From positions 256,001-320,000 of the forward strand of contig CAXXUA010000006.1 of the NCBI GenBank assembly GCA_963663765.2: a DNA stretch of 64,000 nt, read 5' to 3'. This document shows, piece by piece, positions 14,067 through 24,288 of this stretch. Numbering within the stretch: the first letter of the stretch is position 1; every line of letters begins with the position of its first letter. Origin of the DNA: Candidatus Poribacteria bacterium (GTDB lineage Bacteria > Poribacteria > WGA-4E > WGA-3G). A program made the translations under genes and the position numbers. Under the pieces are notes generated by a model. That model searched no databases, was not told the origin of the DNA, and was given only the letters and a program-made list of their open reading frames with translations.

Positions 14067-14108
14067 TTGTTTCAACTTTTCTTCTGATCACTAATTTAGG
14101 AGTTTGTT

Positions 14109-14885
14109 ATGTCAACCCAAAAAACAGATAAACGTTTTCAATACGTCCCAACAGATGATGCAGGTATCTACTATCCGGAAACGGATGATAGACCCTTTGC
14201 TGAATCCGACCTACACCTTATCCATATAATCGACACATACCACAGACTAAATGCTTATTATGAAGAAAGAGAGGACGTTTATGTTTCTGGGAACTTACTC
14301 ATCTATGATGTTCCCGGCAAAACACAACGTTCTATTTCTCCTGATGTCATGGTTGTCTTTGGTATTGAGAAAAAAATGAGACGCACTTACAAAACTTGGG
14401 AAGAAGGAAAAGCTCCTGACCTCGTCATGGAGTTTTCAAGTAAAACCACATATAGATCCGATCTCAATAAGAAAATGAAAAGATATGCACAATTAGATGT
14501 AAAAGAGTACTTTCTATACGACCCTGAACGCAGCTACTTAGACGATCCATTGGTTGGACTAAGACTCAATGATGATGCACAATTTGTAACAATACAACCA
14601 CAACTAAATGGTGGAATCCCATCAACTGTTTTAGGGTTAGAGTTTTATATTAAAGAAGATGATTTAGGAATTTACAATCCTACTTCAGATGAATGGCTAC
14701 CAACACCATCTGAAAAAGCAGAGAAAGAAGCTGAAGCAAGACGTCAAGAAGCACAAGCAAGAAAGCAAGCAGAACAAGCAAGACGTCAAGAAGCACAAGT
14801 AAGAAAGCAAGCAGAACAGGAAAACACACGACTTCAATCAGAAATTGAACGACTAAAAGGCTTATTAAACACAAATGAAAAATAA
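14109..14885 (+). CDS. Uma2 (DUF820) family endonuclease-like protein
   Basis: ISPDVMVVFG, PDLVMEFSS, VKEYFLYDP; coiled-coil tail. Confidence 0.88.
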   Translation: MSTQKTDKRFQYVPTDDAGIYYPETDDRPFAESDLHLIHIIDTYHRLNAYYEEREDVYVSGNLLIYDVPGKTQRSISPDVMVVFGIEKKMRRTYKTWEEGKAPDLVMEFSSKTTYRSDLNKKMKRYAQLDVKEYFLYDPERSYLDDPLVGLRLNDDAQFVTIQPQLNGGIPSTVLGLEFYIKEDDLGIYNPTSDEWLPTPSEKAEKEAEARRQEAQARKQAEQARRQEAQVRKQAEQENTRLQSEIERLKGLLNTNEK

Positions 14886-14959
14886 GATTGTAGTAAAAGA
14901 TACAGATGCTGTCTTATGTCACGCATTAACTATACGAATGACAAAGGTAATATAACCAT

Positions 14960-15081
14960 CAGGACTTACGCACCCAATAATAGGCGTGCTTTGTAAGCGC
15001 GCTGGAAACATAAATAATGCTGAAAATTACAGCATTATTATCACAATTCTTGATTAAATCATGTCAAATGTTTAAGTCCTG
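14960..15081. mobile_element. MITE with CAGGACTTA ends and 5-bp TSD
   Basis: caggacttacgca / tgtttaagtcctg flanked by ACCAT on both sides. Confidence 0.75.
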
Positions 15082-15121
15082 ACCATAAAATAAACACCAT
15101 ATTAGGAGTAGAAAATGTCAA

Positions 15122-15404
15122 CCTAATGAACTTTGACGTTCAAGTTGGGTATTCGTAGGGGCGTGGTCTCCACGCCCGATCTACACAAACTCACAAACCA
15201 AACGGGTTGGGGAACCCAACCCCTACGAATTCAACTACCGATTTTGATTGTCAAAGTTCATTAGGTGTCAACTTAAGAAAATATTGTTTGCATTTTCTCT
15301 TGTAGGAGGGGTTTTCAACCCCGATTTGAGCGGAAATGCACTAAAAAATCGGGGTTGAAAACCCCTCCCACAAGAGGTTAAAATCCTTAAGTTGACACCT
15401 ATAG
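15122..15404. mobile_element. Long-TSD MITE with a nested TA-duplicating MITE (15126-15261)
   Basis: GAGTAGAAAATGTCAA repeated at 15106-15121 and 15405-15420; inner ends atgaactttgac / gtcaaagttcat flanked by TA. Confidence 0.7.
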
Positions 15405-15413
15405 GAGTAGAAA

Positions 15414-16169
15414 ATGTCAAACCAAAAGACAAATAAACGATTTCAATACGTCCCAACAGATGATGCAGGTATCTACTATCCGGAAACGGATGGTAGACCC
15501 TTCGCAGAATCCGACCTACACCGTATCCATATAATCGACACATATCACAGGTTAAATGCTTATTATGAAGATAGAGATGATGTCTACGTTTCTGGGAACT
15601 TACTCATCTATGATGTTCCCGGTAAAACACAACGCTCTATTTCTCCTGATGTCATGGTTGTCTTTGGTATTGAGAAAAAAATGAGACGCACTTACAAAAC
15701 TTGGGAAGAAGGAAAAGCACCTGACCTCGTCATGGAATTTTCAAGTAAAACCACATATAGATCCGATCTCAATAAGAAAATGAAAAGATATGCACTTTTA
15801 GGTGTAAAAGAGTATTTTCTATACGACCCTGAACGCAGCTACTTAGACGATCCATTGGTCGGTCTAAGACTAAATGATGATGGACAATATGTAACAATAC
15901 CACCACAACCAAATGGTGGAATCCCATCAACTGTTTTAGGGTTAGAGTTTTATATTCAAGAAGATGATTTAGGAATTTACAATCCTACTTCGGATGAATG
16001 GCTACCAACACCTGTTGAAAAAGCAGAGAAAGAAGCTGAAGCAAGACAACAAGAAACACAAGCAAGACAACAAGAAGCACAAGCAAGACAACGTGCAGAA
16101 AACGAAGTCACACGACTTCAAGCCGAAATAGAACGACTGAAAGGTCAAGTTAACAGACATGAAGATTAG
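15414..16169 (+). CDS. Uma2 (DUF820) family protein, close paralog of 14109-14885
   Basis: Near-identical sequence to the upstream paralog. Confidence 0.88.
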   Translation: MSNQKTNKRFQYVPTDDAGIYYPETDGRPFAESDLHRIHIIDTYHRLNAYYEDRDDVYVSGNLLIYDVPGKTQRSISPDVMVVFGIEKKMRRTYKTWEEGKAPDLVMEFSSKTTYRSDLNKKMKRYALLGVKEYFLYDPERSYLDDPLVGLRLNDDGQYVTIPPQPNGGIPSTVLGLEFYIQEDDLGIYNPTSDEWLPTPVEKAEKEAEARQQETQARQQEAQARQRAENEVTRLQAEIERLKGQVNRHED

Positions 16170-19898: not shown

Positions 19899-20015
19899 CT
19901 GACTTTTCAAAACCTTCACTTTTTCTACAAAAATCAAACTTTTCTTATATTTTTTTAAACCGTTCTTAAGAATTTCCTACTCATTATAACCGAAATCTAA
20001 TTAGGAATTCTGTAT

Positions 20016-21800
20016 ATGTACTTCAATTTTATACCCATAAGCGACCTGAAAGATGAAGATCTCGTCCCGCTTGTTCAAGCTCGTGACGAAACAGCATTCA
20101 AGGAATTGATGAATCGTTACAATCCAAAAATCTGGTTTGTAGTTAACGAAAATTCAAGACAACGCCAAGATGCTGAAGAGATCCTTATGGACATCTGGAT
20201 GGCAGTTTGGGATAACATTATCGGTTTGCGAAAACCAGAAAGTTTTGGCGGTTGGTTACGCAGAATCGCACATAACGCCTGCAAAAGATACTACGCATCG
20301 GGAAAAAATCAGCATAGTGAAATACTATTAGATTACGATGAACTAACTCTACAGATTGATAGAGAAGCGGAACAACGTTTTCAAAACGCAAGACTACGAT
20401 CTGATGCAAGAGAAGCAGTACATCAACTTCCACAACGCATAGTGTCTGTCGCGAGATTATACTATCTTGAGCAGTGGAACGTCAATGAGATCGCTACTGA
20501 ACTCAACTTAGCTGTCGGTACTGTAAAGTCAAAACTCAGTGAAGTACGGAAACTGCTAAGAAAAGAATTTGAGGTTGAACCTATAAGGAGAGAAACTATG
20601 TCAGCTAACATGCAAAACAATGAAAACGAACAGAAAAAAATAAAAATTATAGGTGTTGGCGGTGCTGGATGTAACACTGTTAAACGCCTAATTGATGAAA
20701 GTTTGAGAAACACTGAATTCTATGTTGTTGATACTGATAAGGAAACCCTTAGTTCTTGCAATGAGGTGACACAAGTACAAATCGGTATAAACAATCTTAA
20801 AGGGCAAAGTACCAACGGAAACCTGGAACTTGGGAAAAGGGCAGCTGCGGAAAGTATGGATGAACTACGTACTATCGTCTCAGACGCAAATCTAGTTTTT
20901 GTAATTGCAGGTATGGGGGGAGGAACTGGTACTGCCGTTGCACCAGTTATTACTTCACTGGCACGCCAACAAAAAGCATTGACGATCTGTATGGCAACAC
21001 GTCCATTTGAAGTAGAGGGAAAACTACGCTCAGAACAGGCAGAAGAAGGGATAAGGGAACTGCACAGTAACGAGCATCCCCAAGCTGATGCAGTTATCAT
21101 TGTCCCAAACCAGCGAATACTCGATTTAGTTGACGTGGATTTACCTATACCACAAGCATATTTGGAAAGTGATGAAATTTTGGTACAAGGTGTAAGTCTT
21201 ATCGCAGAAATGGTTACACATAATGGTGAAATAAGTGTAGACTTAGAAGATATTCAATCAATACTGCAAGACAAAGGAACTGTTCTAATGAGTTTCGGCA
21301 AAGCTAATGGCGAAAATAGAGCAAGAATCGCTGCACGGAACGCAATATCCTCACCCTTATTGGAAGAGAGTAAAGTCAATGAGGAATCTGCAGTCATTGT
21401 TGGTATCGCATCTCCACCAGATTTTACCTTTCATGAATTAGATGAAACCATGAAGGAAATAGTTAAAGAAACCCCACCTGAACAGATTATGTTTGGATTA
21501 GTATATAAAAAAGAACTGGAGGCAACTGGGGAAGTGATAGTAACAATCATTTCAACAATACCTGATTCTTCTAAACAGCAAGTACTTACAATTGACACCA
21601 GTAAGGACACAGAAGCTCCCACTGATGATAAGACCGTTTCCGCATCAAAAAAACAAGAATTTACACATCAACCCAAATACAGTAATTATGATCTTTCATA
21701 TCTTATAAATCAAGTACCCGTAAATGTTAAAACAACCATTGAACAAGGTATTACTGCCACAGTAAAAAATCAACCACAGTCAGCAAAACTACAAAGTTGA
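20016..21800 (+). CDS. ECF-type sigma70 factor fused to an FtsZ-like GTPase domain
   Basis: aa 1-190: sigma region 2 (DAEEILMDIW, FGGWLRRIAHN) and region 4 (EIATELNLAVGTVKSKL); from aa 195: IKIIGVGGAGCN, AGMGGGTGTA, TRPFEVEG..R, IIVPNQRI. Confidence 0.88.
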   Translation: MYFNFIPISDLKDEDLVPLVQARDETAFKELMNRYNPKIWFVVNENSRQRQDAEEILMDIWMAVWDNIIGLRKPESFGGWLRRIAHNACKRYYASGKNQHSEILLDYDELTLQIDREAEQRFQNARLRSDAREAVHQLPQRIVSVARLYYLEQWNVNEIATELNLAVGTVKSKLSEVRKLLRKEFEVEPIRRETMSANMQNNENEQKKIKIIGVGGAGCNTVKRLIDESLRNTEFYVVDTDKETLSSCNEVTQVQIGINNLKGQSTNGNLELGKRAAAESMDELRTIVSDANLVFVIAGMGGGTGTAVAPVITSLARQQKALTICMATRPFEVEGKLRSEQAEEGIRELHSNEHPQADAVIIVPNQRILDLVDVDLPIPQAYLESDEILVQGVSLIAEMVTHNGEISVDLEDIQSILQDKGTVLMSFGKANGENRARIAARNAISSPLLEESKVNEESAVIVGIASPPDFTFHELDETMKEIVKETPPEQIMFGLVYKKELEATGEVIVTIISTIPDSSKQQVLTIDTSKDTEAPTDDKTVSASKKQEFTHQPKYSNYDLSYLINQVPVNVKTTIEQGITATVKNQPQSAKLQS

Positions 21801-21816
21801 TATAATAATTACTGTG

Positions 21817-22612
21817 TTGTGGTAGGGGTTTCCAACCCCGATTTCTGAATCATGGATGACGCGAAATGCACAAATCTAAAACCCTTGATGAGGTAAATCC
21901 TGAAAATCTCAAAATCCTGAAAATCCTAGTTCAAACAGAATCGCGGAGTAGATCCCTGTATAAAGTCTTATTGCATAGTATAAGCGTTTTCAAAGCCAAA
22001 ACACTTTATGCAGGTATCTTCTCCGCGCAATCCGCGTAATCCGATATTTCGCACCCAACCTCTTGTGGTAGGGGTTTCCAACCCCGTTTTCTGAATCATG
22101 TATGACGCAAAATGCACAATTCAAAAACCTTTGATGAGGTAAATCCTGAAAATCTCAAAATCCTGAAAATCCTGGTTCAGACAAACTGTCTTCTCCGCGC
22201 AATCCGCGTAATCCGTGATTTCACACCCACCCTCTTATGGGCTTACAATTACCCATAAGTTTTTGGGTATAGTCCGTTAAGTCTTTTGTGGGTGCCTATT
22301 GCTCAAAAACACCTGAAAACTGACCAATATTTTAGATGTAGAATACCGTTATAGGCCTATTAGACAAGTTTCACAAGATTTTTCAGTTCTTATGACCAGT
22401 TTTCTGTAATCTATCGGGGTTAGAAACCCCTCTTACAGCAGCATGGCGTGCCTTTGTACCTCCAATTTGACTTATGGGTAAAAGTAGGTCTTGTGGGAGG
22501 GGTTTTCAACCCCGATTTCTGAATCATGTATGACGCGAAATGCATACATCAAAAACCTTGATGAGGTAAATCCTGAAAATCTCAAAATCCTGATAATCCT
22601 GGTTCAGACAGA
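21817..22612. repeat. Three copies of a ~120-bp REP + AAAATCCTG composite repeat
   Basis: Copies start near 21817, 22063 and 22491 (GGGGTTTCCAACCCCG...AATCCTGAAAATCTCAAAATCCTG). Confidence 0.8.
22242..22488. mobile_element. 247-bp MITE with CTTAC..TTACCCATAAGT ends and 9-bp TSD
   Basis: TSD tcttatggg / tcttgtggg; inverted sister copy of the same length at 42092-42338. Confidence 0.85.
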
Positions 22613-22831
22613 ATCCGCAATCCAGATTCAGACAATCCCCCAAATCCAATGTATATCTATTAGAAATCCCTTGTCCTTAACCCCACATAAACCCCCATCC
22701 GCACCCAACCTCCAATTATAATAATAACATTATTACTGATCTTTGTAGCACAAACTGTTAGTTTGTGCATTATTCCGCATCACTCCTAACAACTCAACGA
22801 GGACAAAAACATGCAACAACAAATCTTCCAA

Positions 22832-24288
22832 GGGTGTGTAAAGTTTTTATCACAAGAATGTACTGAATACAGATCTTGCTTAGTATTAGGTAAAATGGTA
22901 TCCTTCTATAAAACAGAATTTTTATCAGAGAGGATACCAATGTTTAGTATATCATTAGCAAGTTGTGAAGTCAAAGAGTTTAGAGAAGATGCAAACCATT
23001 TTGTAGAAAAGATCAATAATGTTTTACAAACCCTTAGTTCAGACAGTCTTTATGTAGACGCTATGGAGATATTAGTCTTTGAGACGATGCGTTCGTTAGG
23101 TCAAATGATGTTAGAAATGGTTGTTCTCAAACATTCCGTTGAACAAGTTTCTGGATCTGTTGAATGTCCACAATGTCAACAAGCATGTCGTCCGTATCGT
23201 AAAAGAGAACGCCGTATTACGACGCTATGTGGTGTTATTCGTGTTGACCGTTGGGTGTATCGTTGTGCTTCGGGTCATTATCATTTTCCGTGGGATACGA
23301 AAGAAAAGTTGAAAGGTCAATACACACATCGTGTAGCTGAAGTGATGTGTCGTATGCCTGCGCGTCTTGACTTCAGGGAGGCAGCAGAGGAGTTGTTTCG
23401 TCAAGGGATAGAAGTCAGTCGGACGACCCTCAATCAAAATGTGCGTGAATGGTCAAAAGCGTTGCGGGATTCACAACAAGTGGAAACACAAAAACTTGAG
23501 GCAAATCAGCGTTGGTATGTGAGTTGTGATGGATGCCACACCAACTCACAAGAGGGGTGGAAAGAAACCAAAGTTGGTTGTATTTATAGAGATTATCCAC
23601 AACCTCCAAATAGTTCTGATGTGACACCGAGTGCGAGAACACCAAGCATTCGTTATGTTGCGGAGCGTGAGAATGCGGCTCATTTCGGTAAAGCGTTGTA
23701 TAAGTTAGCAACGCAGAGCGGCATCTATTAAGAAGATATAGGGACGCAAGAGGTCGTGTTTATCGGAGATGGAGCGGCGTGGATATGGAACTTAGCGGCT
23801 GAATACTTCCCGAATGCTGTAGAGATTGTGGATTAATGCATGCCAAATCACATCTTTATGATGTGGCTAAAGTTGCCTTTGGTGAGACAGAAACAGAAGT
23901 CGTAGAAACTTGGGTCACAGAGACAGAACCCTTTCTTTTTGATGGCAACATTCCAGAAGTTGTCTCACGTATCCGTGCTTTAGTCACACAGCACCCAGAC
24001 GTTTGTGAGATTTTAGTAAGAGAAACAGGTTATTTTGAAAAACACGCGAAACGGATGTAATATAAAACGTTTAGAGAAAAGGGGTATCAGGTTGGGAGTG
24101 GTGTGATTGAGAGTGCGTGTAAACATGTTGTGGGACAAAGGTGTAAACAAGCTGCTATGAGATGGAAAAAAGAAGGTATCAACTCAGTGCTTGCTTTACG
24201 GTGTTTAGTCAAAAATAAGGCGTTGGACAGATATTGGATGCAACGCCCACAAGCAGCATGAAACTTATAACCAAAACTTTACACACCC
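22832..24288 (+). mobile_element. Decayed ISKra4/ISLre2-type (UPF0236) insertion sequence
   Basis: TIR GGGTGTGTAAAGTTTT / AAAACTTTACACACCC; transposase motifs CPQC, IGDGAAWIWN, GSGVIESACK..MRW; stops at 23729 and 24058 and a frameshift near 23835. Confidence 0.85.

What the first reader, a model, noticed from the sequence alone, without database searches (positions are those of the whole stretch)
20016..21800. ECF sigma factor fused in frame to an FtsZ-like GTPase, with an internal RBS
Seen: sigma regions 2 and 4 followed by a full FtsZ fold with altered motifs (GGGTGTA signature; DTD instead of NTD; T7 loop SVDLED instead of NxDFAD) and no canonical FtsZ C-terminal peptide. AAGGAG lies 7 nt before the in-frame ATG at 20598, so a free FtsZ-like protein could also be translated. 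The gene is outside any dcw cluster. Known: ECF factors with regulatory C-terminal extensions exist, but I know of no described tubulin/FtsZ extension. Inference: GTP- or polymer-dependent sequestration of a sigma factor, which could couple transcription to division state.
Basis: partly seen in the sequence, partly recalled or inferred. Interest (0 to 1): 0.8.

Follow-up and report, generated by a model that had tools for sequence, protein, structure and literature searches.

The report
Sigma factor fused to FtsZ paralogue
A sponge-symbiont bacterium (Candidatus Poribacteria) really does encode one protein joining a stress-type sigma factor to an extra copy of the division protein FtsZ, and it is the shortened form of a larger, apparently undescribed sigma-FtsZ-DNA polymerase fusion common in this lineage.

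Summary
Window 20016-21800 (+) is one uninterrupted 594-aa ORF: ECF sigma (regions 2 and 4), then a complete FtsZ fold. It is neither an assembly error nor strain-specific. Contigs from two independent studies bridge the junction without indels, and more than 200 protein clusters share the architecture.

Syntenic orthologues in other Poribacteria encode sigma-FtsZ-PHP-DNA polymerase III alpha in one ~1430-aa frame. The window's last ~49 residues are a decayed PHP N-terminus, so this gene is a derivative that lost its polymerase.

The genome keeps a canonical ftsZ beside ftsA, two dnaE, a sigma-FtsZ twin, a sigma-half-FtsZ gene and three sigma-WD40 paralogues. All six sigma fusions share one promoter-like motif. 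The five that my junction scripts covered also carry a conserved Shine-Dalgarno plus ATG at the domain junction.

A complex prediction docks sigma region 2 onto the FtsZ domain (0.74; best control 0.00).

Best reading: a probably self-activating ECF sigma factor with an FtsZ-derived built-in regulator. The mechanism is inferred, not shown. I found no paper describing it; this scan has noted sister fusions in other genomes.

The parts
19950..19961 (+). -35-like promoter block TTTTTTTAAACC
   Evidence: Present in 29 of 29 upstream regions that could be anchored. In the 6.35-Mb genome the two-block motif marks the six sigma-fusion genes; they are the top 6 PWM hits.
19980..19986 (+). -10-like promoter block CTCATTA, 18 nt after the -35-like block
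   Evidence: Its role as an ECF self-promoter is inferred, not shown.
20016..21800 (+). CDS of the sigma-FtsZ fusion, 594 aa including the stop codon
   Evidence: dN/dS to orthologues is 0.23-0.26.
20106..20300 (+). Sigma-70 region 2 (residues 31-95)
   Evidence: Pfam. dN/dS for sigma residues 1-190 is 0.10-0.18. Residues 18-24 and 62-72 lie in the predicted interface.
20412..20558 (+). Sigma-70 region 4 (residues 133-181)
   Evidence: Pfam.
20585..20590 (+). Internal Shine-Dalgarno-like AAGGAG inside the disordered junction linker
   Evidence: The 16S 3' end carries CCTCC. The linker, residues 188-205, has pLDDT under 50.
20598..20600 (+). In-frame ATG (Met195), candidate start of a free 400-aa FtsZ-like product
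   Evidence: ATG in 41 and GTG in 1 of 42 distinct junctions. It aligns close to the start region of the canonical FtsZ.
20637..21131 (+). FtsZ N-terminal GTPase domain (residues 208-372)
   Evidence: Pfam. Motifs. Predicted sigma-contacting residues are 260, 271-285, 307-318 and 348-354.
21276..21557 (+). FtsZ C-terminal domain (residues 421-514); the T7 loop SVDLED sits just before it
   Evidence: Pfam.
21561..21650 (+). Disordered spacer (residues 516-545)
   Evidence: pLDDT is about 26-33 over most of it.
21651..21797 (+). Vestige of the PHP-domain N-terminus (residues 546-594), with the HxH motif lost
   Evidence: It aligns with the PHP N-terminal segment (FVHLHNHSEYS and the ~30 residues after it) of the triple fusions. 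A helix at 569-584 is predicted. dN/dS is 0.34-0.54.
21817..22611 (.). Array of a ~121-nt multi-copy repeat directly after the gene (copies at 21817, 22063 and 22491). Synteny with relatives and with the paralogue ends here.
   Evidence: Contig depth jumps about 7-fold from 21776.

Best explanation
The gene encodes a member of a Poribacteria-specific family of ECF sigma factors. Its C-terminal extension is a diverged paralogue of FtsZ.

Shown:
- It is the positional orthologue of a ~1430-aa sigma-FtsZ-PHP-PolIII-alpha protein found in related genomes. It has lost the polymerase and keeps only a ~49-residue PHP vestige.
- Sigma and FtsZ parts are under purifying selection.
- All six sigma-fusion genes of this subfamily in the genome carry one shared promoter-like motif, TTTTTTTAAACC-N18-CTCWTW. 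The six are two sigma-FtsZ, one sigma-half-FtsZ and three sigma-WD40 genes.
- The five of them covered by my junction scripts, and the family's relatives elsewhere, carry a Shine-Dalgarno plus ATG exactly at the sigma/partner junction. The short form in this genome has only a weak 5-mer match (GAGGT).

Inferred:
- The sigma domain is a working ECF sigma that activates its own promoter and probably those of its paralogues.
- The gene yields two products: the 594-aa fusion, and a free 400-aa FtsZ-like protein starting at Met195.
- In the fusion the FtsZ domain acts as a built-in anti-sigma. Its H3/H4/H5 face and T3 loop cover sigma region 2. From general knowledge of sigma-70 proteins, that is the surface that binds RNA polymerase core.
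- A change in the FtsZ domain releases sigma. Candidates are nucleotide state, co-assembly with the free product or with the division FtsZ, or a bound partner.

The FtsZ domain lacks the FtsA-binding tail. It is therefore not the division FtsZ.
For: Architecture.

Conservation: 45 sigma-FtsZ, 5 sigma-FtsZ-PHP, 119 sigma-FtsZ-Pol and 71 sigma-half-FtsZ clusters among the 242 proteins classified.

Orthology and loss of the polymerase:
- The same four upstream genes precede the gene in L007, L010 and the window.
- The tail aligns with the PHP N-terminus.
- The window protein sits in a 29-row sigma-FtsZ clade (support 97) beside triple fusions.
- The careful FtsZ tree puts it in a 100/100 clade together with triple fusions.

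Selection: dN/dS is 0.10-0.18 for sigma and 0.23-0.25 for FtsZ against orthologues.

Promoter: the motif is in 29 of 29 anchored upstream regions. In the genome the regex gives 7 hits, 6 of them the six sigma-fusion genes, against a block-shuffled mean of 1.7. The PWM top 6 are the same six, at 21.5-31.2 bits; the next hit scores 19.5.

Internal start:
- An SD match of 4 or more letters occurs at 42 of 42 distinct junctions, against 106 of 676 other in-frame ATGs.
- A match of 6 or more letters occurs at 18 of 42, against 3 of 676.
- The purine run persists although the encoded residues differ (RRE, RRG, KGK, RSG, RGA, QGD).
- The anti-SD CCTCC is present in the 16S rRNA.

Docking: the model supports binding of sigma 1-195 to FtsZ 196-540. 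The score is 0.74 (runs 0.64, 0.74, 0.74) and the best of 3 controls is 0.00. That mark was reached by 58 of 80 solved complexes and 2 of 110 mismatched pairs. The runs agree in at least 59% of contacts, and partner pLDDT is at least 70. These counts hold only roughly because my own alignment was used. No solved chain covers both halves, so the pass is not from memory of a known complex.

No anti-sigma domain in the neighbours searched (four upstream, five downstream).

A canonical ftsZ lies beside ftsA elsewhere in the genome.
Against: - No experiment, transcript start or protein evidence exists. No RNA run was on record among the holders listed.
- The sigma/FtsZ interface is a prediction from a co-evolving fused alignment, and it could describe a stabilising contact rather than an inhibitory one.
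- The related sequences are kin, so the SD and promoter counts overstate independence. A few members have Val or no Met at the junction (P0009, P0010, P0016; L023).
- The promoter motif was found only in front of the sigma-fusion genes themselves, so no output regulon is known.
- The T1, T3 and T4 loops are altered, so GTP binding, hydrolysis and assembly are all uncertain.
- dN/dS of the FtsZ part between the two in-genome copies is 0.56, which points to some relaxation.
Confidence: 0.5

Rival explanations
1. The FtsZ paralogue is the working part, and the sigma domain only tethers it. In this reading a second, non-division FtsZ of this lineage works with the replication machinery. It is fused to PolIII-alpha in orthologues and to the beta clamp in a sister genus. 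The sigma domain merely anchors it to RNA polymerase or DNA. The window's protein would then be a cytoskeletal or replisome-associated factor, not a transcription switch.
For: All fused FtsZ domains form one clade (94/86) apart from the canonical FtsZs of the same family. This includes those of the DnaN-FtsZ proteins of genus g5. In the triple fusions the polymerase catalytic residues are kept: the Asp pair in 114 of 119, the third Asp in 118 of 119, and the PHP N-terminal HxHxH motif in 117 of 119. An earlier scan note reports a sigma-DnaN fusion in Poribacteria.
Against: The sigma domain is the most constrained part (dN/dS 0.10-0.18). It has a paralogue-shared promoter typical of self-regulated ECF sigmas. 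The same sigma module is fused to WD40 repeats, which have no replication role. The polymerase part has been lost repeatedly while sigma-FtsZ was kept.
Confidence: 0.2
2. The gene is effectively a two-gene unit. The main product of the 3' part is the free FtsZ-like protein made from the internal SD-ATG. That protein acts in trans as the anti-sigma, or as a competitor, for the sigma-FtsZ fusion and its paralogues.
For: The SD plus ATG is conserved at the junction in every paralogue class. The junction Met aligns close to the start region of the canonical FtsZ. The predicted sigma-FtsZ interface was obtained with two separate chains. An earlier scan note reached the same reading on other genomes.
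Against: There is no protein evidence. The SD could be inherited from an ancestral two-gene arrangement. This reading complements the best explanation rather than excluding it.
Confidence: 0.15
3. The gene is a decaying leftover of the triple fusion with no function of its own.
For: The polymerase part is gone and the tail is a degenerate PHP fragment. Several GTPase motifs are altered. Some relatives carry frameshifts or stops (G044; rows with stops inside).
Against: The frame is intact in both in-genome copies and in the 29-row sigma-FtsZ clade, whose members are only about 50% identical. dN/dS is 0.23-0.26 overall. The promoter and SD are conserved.
Confidence: 0.07
4. The fusion is an assembly error or a strain-specific stop loss joining two genes.
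For: None found.
Against: Contigs from two studies bridge 19948-21218 without indels. A 95%-identical second copy exists in the same genome. Fused orthologues occur in 74 of the 150 other genomes sampled from the phylum (my hand count from the listing), and in more than 200 protein clusters.
Confidence: 0.01

Closest known systems
ECF sigma factors with fused C-terminal regulatory extensions: ECF41 (SnoaL-like), ECF42 (TPR), ECF57 (WD40-like), ECF238 (Cys-rich). I read passages of PMC8999054 sections 3.5.1-3.5.2 and of PMC7826278.
   Same: A two-domain ECF core with a long in-frame extension conserved across orthologues. No anti-sigma domain was found in the neighbours searched. The extension is predicted to touch the sigma core. 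The closest paralogues in the genome carry WD40 extensions, as described for ECF57.
   Different: The extension is a whole FtsZ fold, plus a PolIII-alpha core in orthologues. Neither 'tubulin', 'FtsZ' nor 'GTPase' occurs in the main texts of PMC7826278, PMC8999054 or PMC7671368. Their supplements could not be read. A conserved internal SD-ATG at the junction is not part of the described ECF extension types, as far as the passages I read go. Membership of a numbered ECF group could not be tested.
Cell-division FtsZ (TIGR00065)
   Same: Tubulin GTPase plus FtsZ_C domains. About 52% identical to the genome's own FtsZ. The best solved relatives are bacterial FtsZ structures, at E 4.7e-67. The G-box core, the PNQ motif and both T7 aspartates are kept.
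   Different: It scores under the equivalog cut-off (285.3 against 295.2). T1, T3 and the last G-box residue are altered. There is no C-terminal FtsA-binding peptide. It is not in a dcw context. It is fused to sigma. It belongs to a separate paralogue clade.
Sigma/anti-sigma pairs encoded as adjacent, co-translated genes
   Same: The sigma part is followed directly by an SD and ATG that start a partner predicted to cover sigma region 2.
   Different: There is no stop codon between them, so partner and sigma are also covalently joined. The partner has no anti-sigma domain fold.
Nested in-frame genes with an internal start (recalled general class; also named in earlier scan note e1-5086433)
   Same: A conserved SD plus ATG inside a longer frame could give a full-length product and a C-terminal product.
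   Different: No protein evidence here.

Membership tests
ECF (group 4) sigma-70 factors | Only regions 2 and 4 are present; the score is above the family threshold | tested here: met
   Sigma70_r2 and r4_2/r4 hits, no region 3 or 1.1 hit. TIGR02937 scores 71.1 bits against a cut-off of 42.9.
ECF (group 4) sigma-70 factors | A conserved group-specific promoter upstream of its own gene (self-regulation) | tested here: inconclusive
   A conserved two-block motif is present in 29 of 29 anchored upstream regions and marks the six paralogues in the genome. Recognition by this sigma was not tested.
ECF (group 4) sigma-70 factors | A cognate anti-sigma factor encoded next to it | tested here: not met
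   The neighbours searched are an enolase-family enzyme, an SDR, TatD and an ABC permease upstream. Downstream come repeats, a 306-aa ORF with no Pfam family, and a LamG-like protein, a hydantoinase and two further enzymes or transport proteins. ORFs under 120 aa were not searched. This fits the extension-bearing ECF classes.
ECF sigma factors with regulatory C-terminal extension | An in-frame extension longer than 50 aa, conserved in orthologues | tested here: met
   A 400-aa extension that is conserved.
ECF sigma factors with regulatory C-terminal extension | The extension contacts the sigma core and modulates activity | tested here: inconclusive
   The contact is predicted: 0.74 against a best control of 0.00. 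Modulation was not tested.
ECF sigma factors with regulatory C-terminal extension | Assignment to a numbered ECF group by the ECF Hub models | not testable with these tools
   No ECF group models are on hand. The best NCBIfam subfamily hit, TIGR02985, scores 83.5 bits, under its 126.4 cut-off.
FtsZ, cell-division protein (TIGR00065 equivalog) | Score over the curated cut-off | tested here: not met
   285.3 against 295.2 bits. The genome's canonical copy scores 390.1.
FtsZ, cell-division protein (TIGR00065 equivalog) | Tubulin GTPase and FtsZ_C domains with the GGGTGTG and NxDFxD motifs | tested here: inconclusive
   Both domains are present. The motifs read GGGTGTA and SVDLED, with both Asp kept. 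T1 is GGAGCN and T3 is diverged.
FtsZ, cell-division protein (TIGR00065 equivalog) | A conserved C-terminal peptide that binds FtsA or ZipA | tested here: not met
   The tail is a PHP vestige. The canonical copy carries ...DIPAFLRVQ.
FtsZ, cell-division protein (TIGR00065 equivalog) | Position in the dcw cluster next to ftsA | tested here: not met
DNA polymerase III alpha (DnaE), as in the orthologues | PHP, polymerase core and finger domains with the catalytic Asp triad | tested here: not met
   The window keeps only ~49 residues that align to the PHP start, with the HxH motif lost. No DnaE remnant lies downstream. The orthologues have all these domains and keep the triad.

The most novel reading that the evidence does not exclude
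In one family of Poribacteria a second FtsZ paralogue may have become a hub that physically couples transcription, replication and cytoskeletal assembly. It is covalently joined to an ECF sigma factor and a catalytically intact PolIII-alpha core in most genera. It is joined to the beta clamp in another genus, and to sigma alone in the window's lineage. Each fusion gene would also release its partner from an internal start. Sigma activity would then report the state of the replication or division machinery. This would be a kind of cell-cycle-to-transcription coupling with no described counterpart. A bolder variant is that the fused housekeeping paralogues are built-in decoys that sense phage proteins aimed at FtsZ or the replisome.
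Probability: 0.15. Interest if true: 0.9.

Novelty: new variant of a known kind. Interest (0 to 1): 0.72.

Why it matters
[quoted passage not shown] The described extensions are small ligand-binding or repeat domains. Here the extension is a whole cytoskeletal GTPase, and in the orthologues also a DNA polymerase core that keeps its catalytic residues.

If the FtsZ domain gates sigma activity, this would be a direct molecular link between nucleotide or assembly state and transcription.

If the internal start is used, one gene would encode both a regulator and its own free partner.

The family is abundant in an uncultured sponge-symbiont phylum. In the public records I saw, it is named only as 'DNA polymerase III subunit alpha', 'cell division protein FtsZ', 'sigma-70 family RNA polymerase sigma factor' or 'hypothetical protein'. 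Genome-based inferences about replication and division genes in these bacteria may therefore be miscounting paralogues.

Tried and rejected
- RNA evidence: no RNA holder was listed for the stretch. Run X10 is only guessed to be RNA and gave one 246-nt contig over 20325-20570. I draw nothing from it.
- ESM Atlas: the best hits were plain ECF sigma clusters at 0.78, below the level that counts as more than a lead, and no structure search was possible.
- PADLOC: no defence-system family hits P0001 or P0122. The decoy idea has no support from that library.
- Regulon search: a PWM of the two promoter blocks finds nothing convincing beyond the six sigma-fusion genes. The seventh regex hit, on C4, is within chance expectation.
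- Stand-alone FtsZ-like gene: the G044 hit that seemed to start at the junction is a copy with a frame break in sigma region 4 and an internal deletion of the polymerase. It is not a free gene.
- Sigma-DnaN fusion, reported by an earlier scan note: not present in this genome, which has two tandem stand-alone dnaN genes.
- Jogler et al. 2012 (PMC3497475) is not held. What I remember of it was not used.
- P0239, P0243 and P0070 were dropped from that tree because my G-box pattern did not find them.
- 28 of 57 sources were not anchored by my N-terminal pattern or had too little upstream DNA. They were not examined for the promoter.
- 10 of 57 sources were missed by the junction pattern and 5 exact duplicates were dropped. 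Of the 10, one search found SD+ATG in 5 and no junction Met in L023. The other 4 lacked the T1 motif in the fetched stretch.
Full report
**1. The observation**

Window 20016-21800 (+) is a single open frame of 594 codons.
- Pfam finds Sigma70_r2 (residues 31-95), Sigma70_r4_2 (133-181), the Tubulin/FtsZ GTPase domain (208-372) and FtsZ_C (421-514).
- NCBIfam places the N-terminus in the ECF superfamily: TIGR02937 scores 71.1 bits against a cut-off of 42.9.
- Residues 196-528 score 285.3 bits on the ftsZ equivalog model, just under its 295.2 cut-off.

T1 reads GGAGCN. The T3 loop reads GQSTNGNLELG where the genome's canonical FtsZ has GLGAGADPEIG. Both T7 aspartates are retained.

AAGGAG lies at 20585-20590, 7 nt before the in-frame ATG at 20598.

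The neighbours are metabolic and transport genes.

Contigs of two public runs from different studies cover 19948-21218 with substitutions only, so the junction is continuous outside this assembly. A third run's contig stops at 20581 and says nothing either way.

**2. What else the genome holds**

A family search of the whole genome finds four FtsZ-like places:
- A canonical ftsZ (390 bits, 447 aa, ending in ...DIPAFLRVQ) directly beside ftsA.
- The window's gene.
- A 95%-identical second copy on another contig. It matches the window only over 19929-21846, so this is a gene-sized duplication that includes the promoter region.
- A 406-aa gene made of the same kind of sigma domain plus only the N-terminal GTPase half of FtsZ.

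The closest other sigma paralogues are 51-57% identical over residues 1-195. They are three genes in which the same sigma module is fused to WD40 repeats.

The genome also has two full-length stand-alone dnaE genes and two tandem dnaN genes.

**3. The family and where the window's gene comes from**

A search of 5.8 billion proteins returned 120 listed relatives. By precomputed Pfam domains, all but one (P0051) carry sigma and FtsZ domains together. They comprise forms of about 500-710 aa and a class of about 400 aa. The few that carry a name are from Candidatus Poribacteria.

All 11 related loci found in species-representative genomes encode relatives. Ten bear that name and one is titled 'uncultured bacterium'.

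In loci with the same four upstream genes as the window, the frame does not stop after FtsZ. It runs on for about 850 more residues. Those residues are a PHP domain, the DNA polymerase III alpha core, its finger domain and a helix-hairpin-helix domain. The frame ends about 300 residues short of the C-terminus of the genome's own DnaE. By recall of DnaE architecture, that missing part holds the clamp-binding and OB-fold regions.

A second search listed 120 clusters. By the Pfam domains listed, 118 have this sigma-FtsZ-polymerase architecture and 2 stop within or just after PHP. The few named ones are called 'DNA polymerase III subunit alpha' or 'cell division protein FtsZ'.

Of the 242 proteins I classified:

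| Architecture | Clusters |
|---|---|
| sigma-FtsZ-polymerase | 119 |
| sigma-FtsZ-PHP | 5 |
| sigma-FtsZ | 45 |
| sigma-half-FtsZ | 71 |
| FtsZ only (probably fragments) | 2 |

In a sample of 150 other genomes of the phylum, long sigma-FtsZ matches occur only in one family, in genera g1, g2 and g4. By my hand count of the listing:
- 51 genomes have the match in an open frame of 1300 aa or more.
- 22 have it in a frame of 554-700 aa.
- One has it in a frame of 994 aa.
- The 51 genomes of the other eight families give only canonical-FtsZ-level matches.

The window's last ~49 residues align with the first residues of the PHP domain of the triple fusions. The His-x-His motif is lost. No polymerase remnant lies downstream.

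On a FastTree of the sigma-FtsZ part, the window protein lies in a 29-row sigma-FtsZ clade (support 97) beside triple fusions. In a careful tree of the FtsZ domain, it lies with triple fusions in a clade supported 100/100 whose inner order is unresolved.

The direction of change, loss of the polymerase, rests on the PHP vestige.

Other sigma-FtsZ groups end at other points in the first residues of PHP (P0005, P0032 and P0038 groups). One locus of the P0005 type still has a fragment of the far C-terminal end of the polymerase in another frame. The polymerase was therefore lost several times while sigma-FtsZ was kept.

**4. Signs of function**

Against orthologues, dN/dS is 0.10-0.18 for the sigma part, 0.23-0.25 for the FtsZ part and 0.34-0.54 for the tail. 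Between the two copies in the genome, the FtsZ part stands at 0.56.

A two-block motif, TTTTTTTAAACC then 18 nt then CTC[TA]T[TA], lies about 30 nt before the start codon.
- It is present in all 29 upstream regions I could anchor. These include sigma-half-FtsZ genes and two of the WD40 paralogues.
- In the whole genome a regular expression for it hits 7 places. Six are the six sigma-fusion genes. Block-shuffled genomes give 1.7 hits on average.
- A weight-matrix scan ranks the same six first, with a clear gap to the next hit.

A shared motif in front of paralogous sigma genes is what self-regulated ECF groups show. That this sigma reads it is inference.

At the domain junction, a Shine-Dalgarno-like purine run followed by ATG is present in every class of paralogue, although the encoded residues differ.
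- A match of at least 4 letters to the SD core occurs at 42 of 42 distinct junctions, against 106 of 676 other in-frame ATGs of the same genes.
- A match of at least 6 letters occurs at 18 of 42, against 3 of 676.
- The sequences are kin, so these are not independent trials. A few members have Val or no Met there.
- The 16S rRNA ends in ...CACCTCCTTTCT.

**5. Structure**

The AlphaFold2 model (mean pLDDT 74.8) shows a folded sigma region 2, a folded region 4 and a confident FtsZ fold. They are joined by a disordered junction (188-205). A disordered spacer (517-565) and a short helical tail follow.

I then asked whether sigma (1-195) and the FtsZ part (196-540) sit together as two chains. The model supports binding; it does not show it.
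- The score is 0.74 (three runs: 0.64, 0.74, 0.74) and the best of 3 controls is 0.00.
- That mark was reached by 58 of 80 solved complexes and 2 of 110 mismatched pairs. These counts hold only roughly because my own alignment was used.
- The runs agree in at least 59% of contacts, and the partner's pLDDT is at least 70.

The confident contacts are FtsZ residues 260, 271-285, 307-318 and 348-354. In the model's secondary structure these are the T3 loop, helices H3 and H4 and the end of H5. The last stretch includes a 4-residue insertion specific to this clade. On the sigma side the contacts are residues 3, 5, 18-24 and 62-72.

By position in the Pfam region-2 profile and in the model's helices, sigma 62-72 falls in the second long helix of region 2. 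From general knowledge of sigma-70 proteins, that helix belongs to the surface that binds RNA polymerase core. That assignment is inference.

No solved chain covers both halves, so the pass does not come from a known complex.

**6. Most likely mechanism**

Shown: the architecture, the orthology with the triple fusion, the conserved promoter-like motif, the conserved internal SD-ATG and purifying selection.

Inferred:
- The sigma part is an active, self-activating ECF sigma.
- The gene makes both the fusion and a free FtsZ-like protein.
- The FtsZ domain masks sigma region 2 until something acts on it. Candidates are nucleotide state, assembly or a partner.

I put about 0.5 on this package.

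The main rival (0.2) is that the FtsZ paralogue is the working part, with a replication-linked role, and sigma is a tether. In its favour:
- All fused FtsZ domains form one clade (94/86) separate from the canonical ones. This includes those of a beta-clamp-FtsZ fusion found in 2 of 2 genomes of a sister genus that lacks sigma-FtsZ.
- The polymerase part of the triple fusions keeps its catalytic residues.

**7. Comparison with what is known, and novelty**

The closest described kind is the ECF sigma factor with a fused C-terminal regulatory extension. For ECF41 the extension inhibits by contacting the sigma core region. ECF57 carries WD40-like repeats (passages of PMC8999054; passages of PMC7826278).

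The words tubulin, FtsZ and GTPase do not occur in the main texts of those two papers or of PMC7671368. Their supplementary lists could not be read and might name more extension types.

Full-text searches found nothing that describes the fusion. They combined ECF or sigma factor with FtsZ, tubulin, fusion, Poribacteria, WD40 and DNA polymerase III.

Earlier notes of this scan, on other genomes, report the sigma-half-FtsZ gene, a sigma-clamp fusion, and the SD-ATG at such junctions. I reached the first and third independently here. This genome has no sigma-clamp gene.

I rate the finding a new variant of a known kind. The principle, an ECF sigma with a built-in regulator, is known. A cytoskeletal GTPase, with or without a polymerase, as that regulator is not.

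Noticed in passing
L007:5986-10293 and L010:6001-10287 (orthologous loci); P0122-P0242: Sigma-FtsZ-PHP-PolIII-alpha triple fusions of about 1345-1440 aa (one of 1743). They keep the polymerase Asp triad and the PHP His motif. The stretch corresponding to the last ~300 residues of the genome's own DnaE is missing. Public records name them DNA polymerase III alpha or FtsZ.
   Followed up: partly
L056 (G079:C1:2873068-2875185) and L057 (G108:C1:622931-625006); P0270: Beta sliding clamp (DnaN, all three domains) fused N-terminally to a full FtsZ, 706 aa. It occurs in 2 of 2 genomes of sister genus g5, which lacks sigma-FtsZ and keeps a stand-alone dnaN and a canonical ftsZ. Its FtsZ domain groups with the sigma-fused ones.
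   Followed up: partly
G000 contig C11, about 45.8-81.4 kb (outside the window): A dense run of WD40-repeat genes. It includes three sigma-WD40 fusions with the same promoter motif and SD-ATG junction as the window's gene, and several other ECF-WD40 proteins with a transmembrane segment.
   Followed up: partly
window 21817-22611: Three copies of a ~121-nt repeat with a GGGGTTTCCAACCCC hairpin core directly after the gene. Contig depth rises about 7-fold there, so the repeat is multi-copy in the community. Both synteny with relatives and the paralogous duplication end at it.
   Followed up: partly
window 22811-23731: A 306-aa ORF with Cys-x2-Cys pairs and no Pfam family. It lies between the repeat array and the next conserved genes.
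   Followed up: no
P0269 (456 aa, from a 2078-nt contig): A divergent sigma (r2+r4) plus Tubulin-domain protein, only 35% identical. Its FtsZ part branches outside the Poribacteria family clade on a long branch. It may be an independent sigma-FtsZ fusion.
   Followed up: partly
P0244, P0251, P0292, P0297: Proteins of 730-840 aa with two complete FtsZ units in tandem, among the best hits of the representative search.
   Followed up: no
L069 (G044:C1:4938253-4942015): A copy of the sigma-FtsZ gene with a frame break inside sigma region 4 and an internal deletion of nearly the whole polymerase. A fragment of the polymerase's C-terminal end is left in another frame.
   Followed up: partly
G000 C5:1144413-1146686 and C5:312224-315679, 1491083-1494631: Two tandem dnaN genes and two full-length dnaE genes in one genome, so replication genes are duplicated even apart from the fusions.
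   Followed up: no
window 14085-16023: Two adjacent stretches (about 14097-14717 and 15402-16022) both match the same single ORF of relatives. This is a local tandem duplication upstream of the syntenic block.
   Followed up: no
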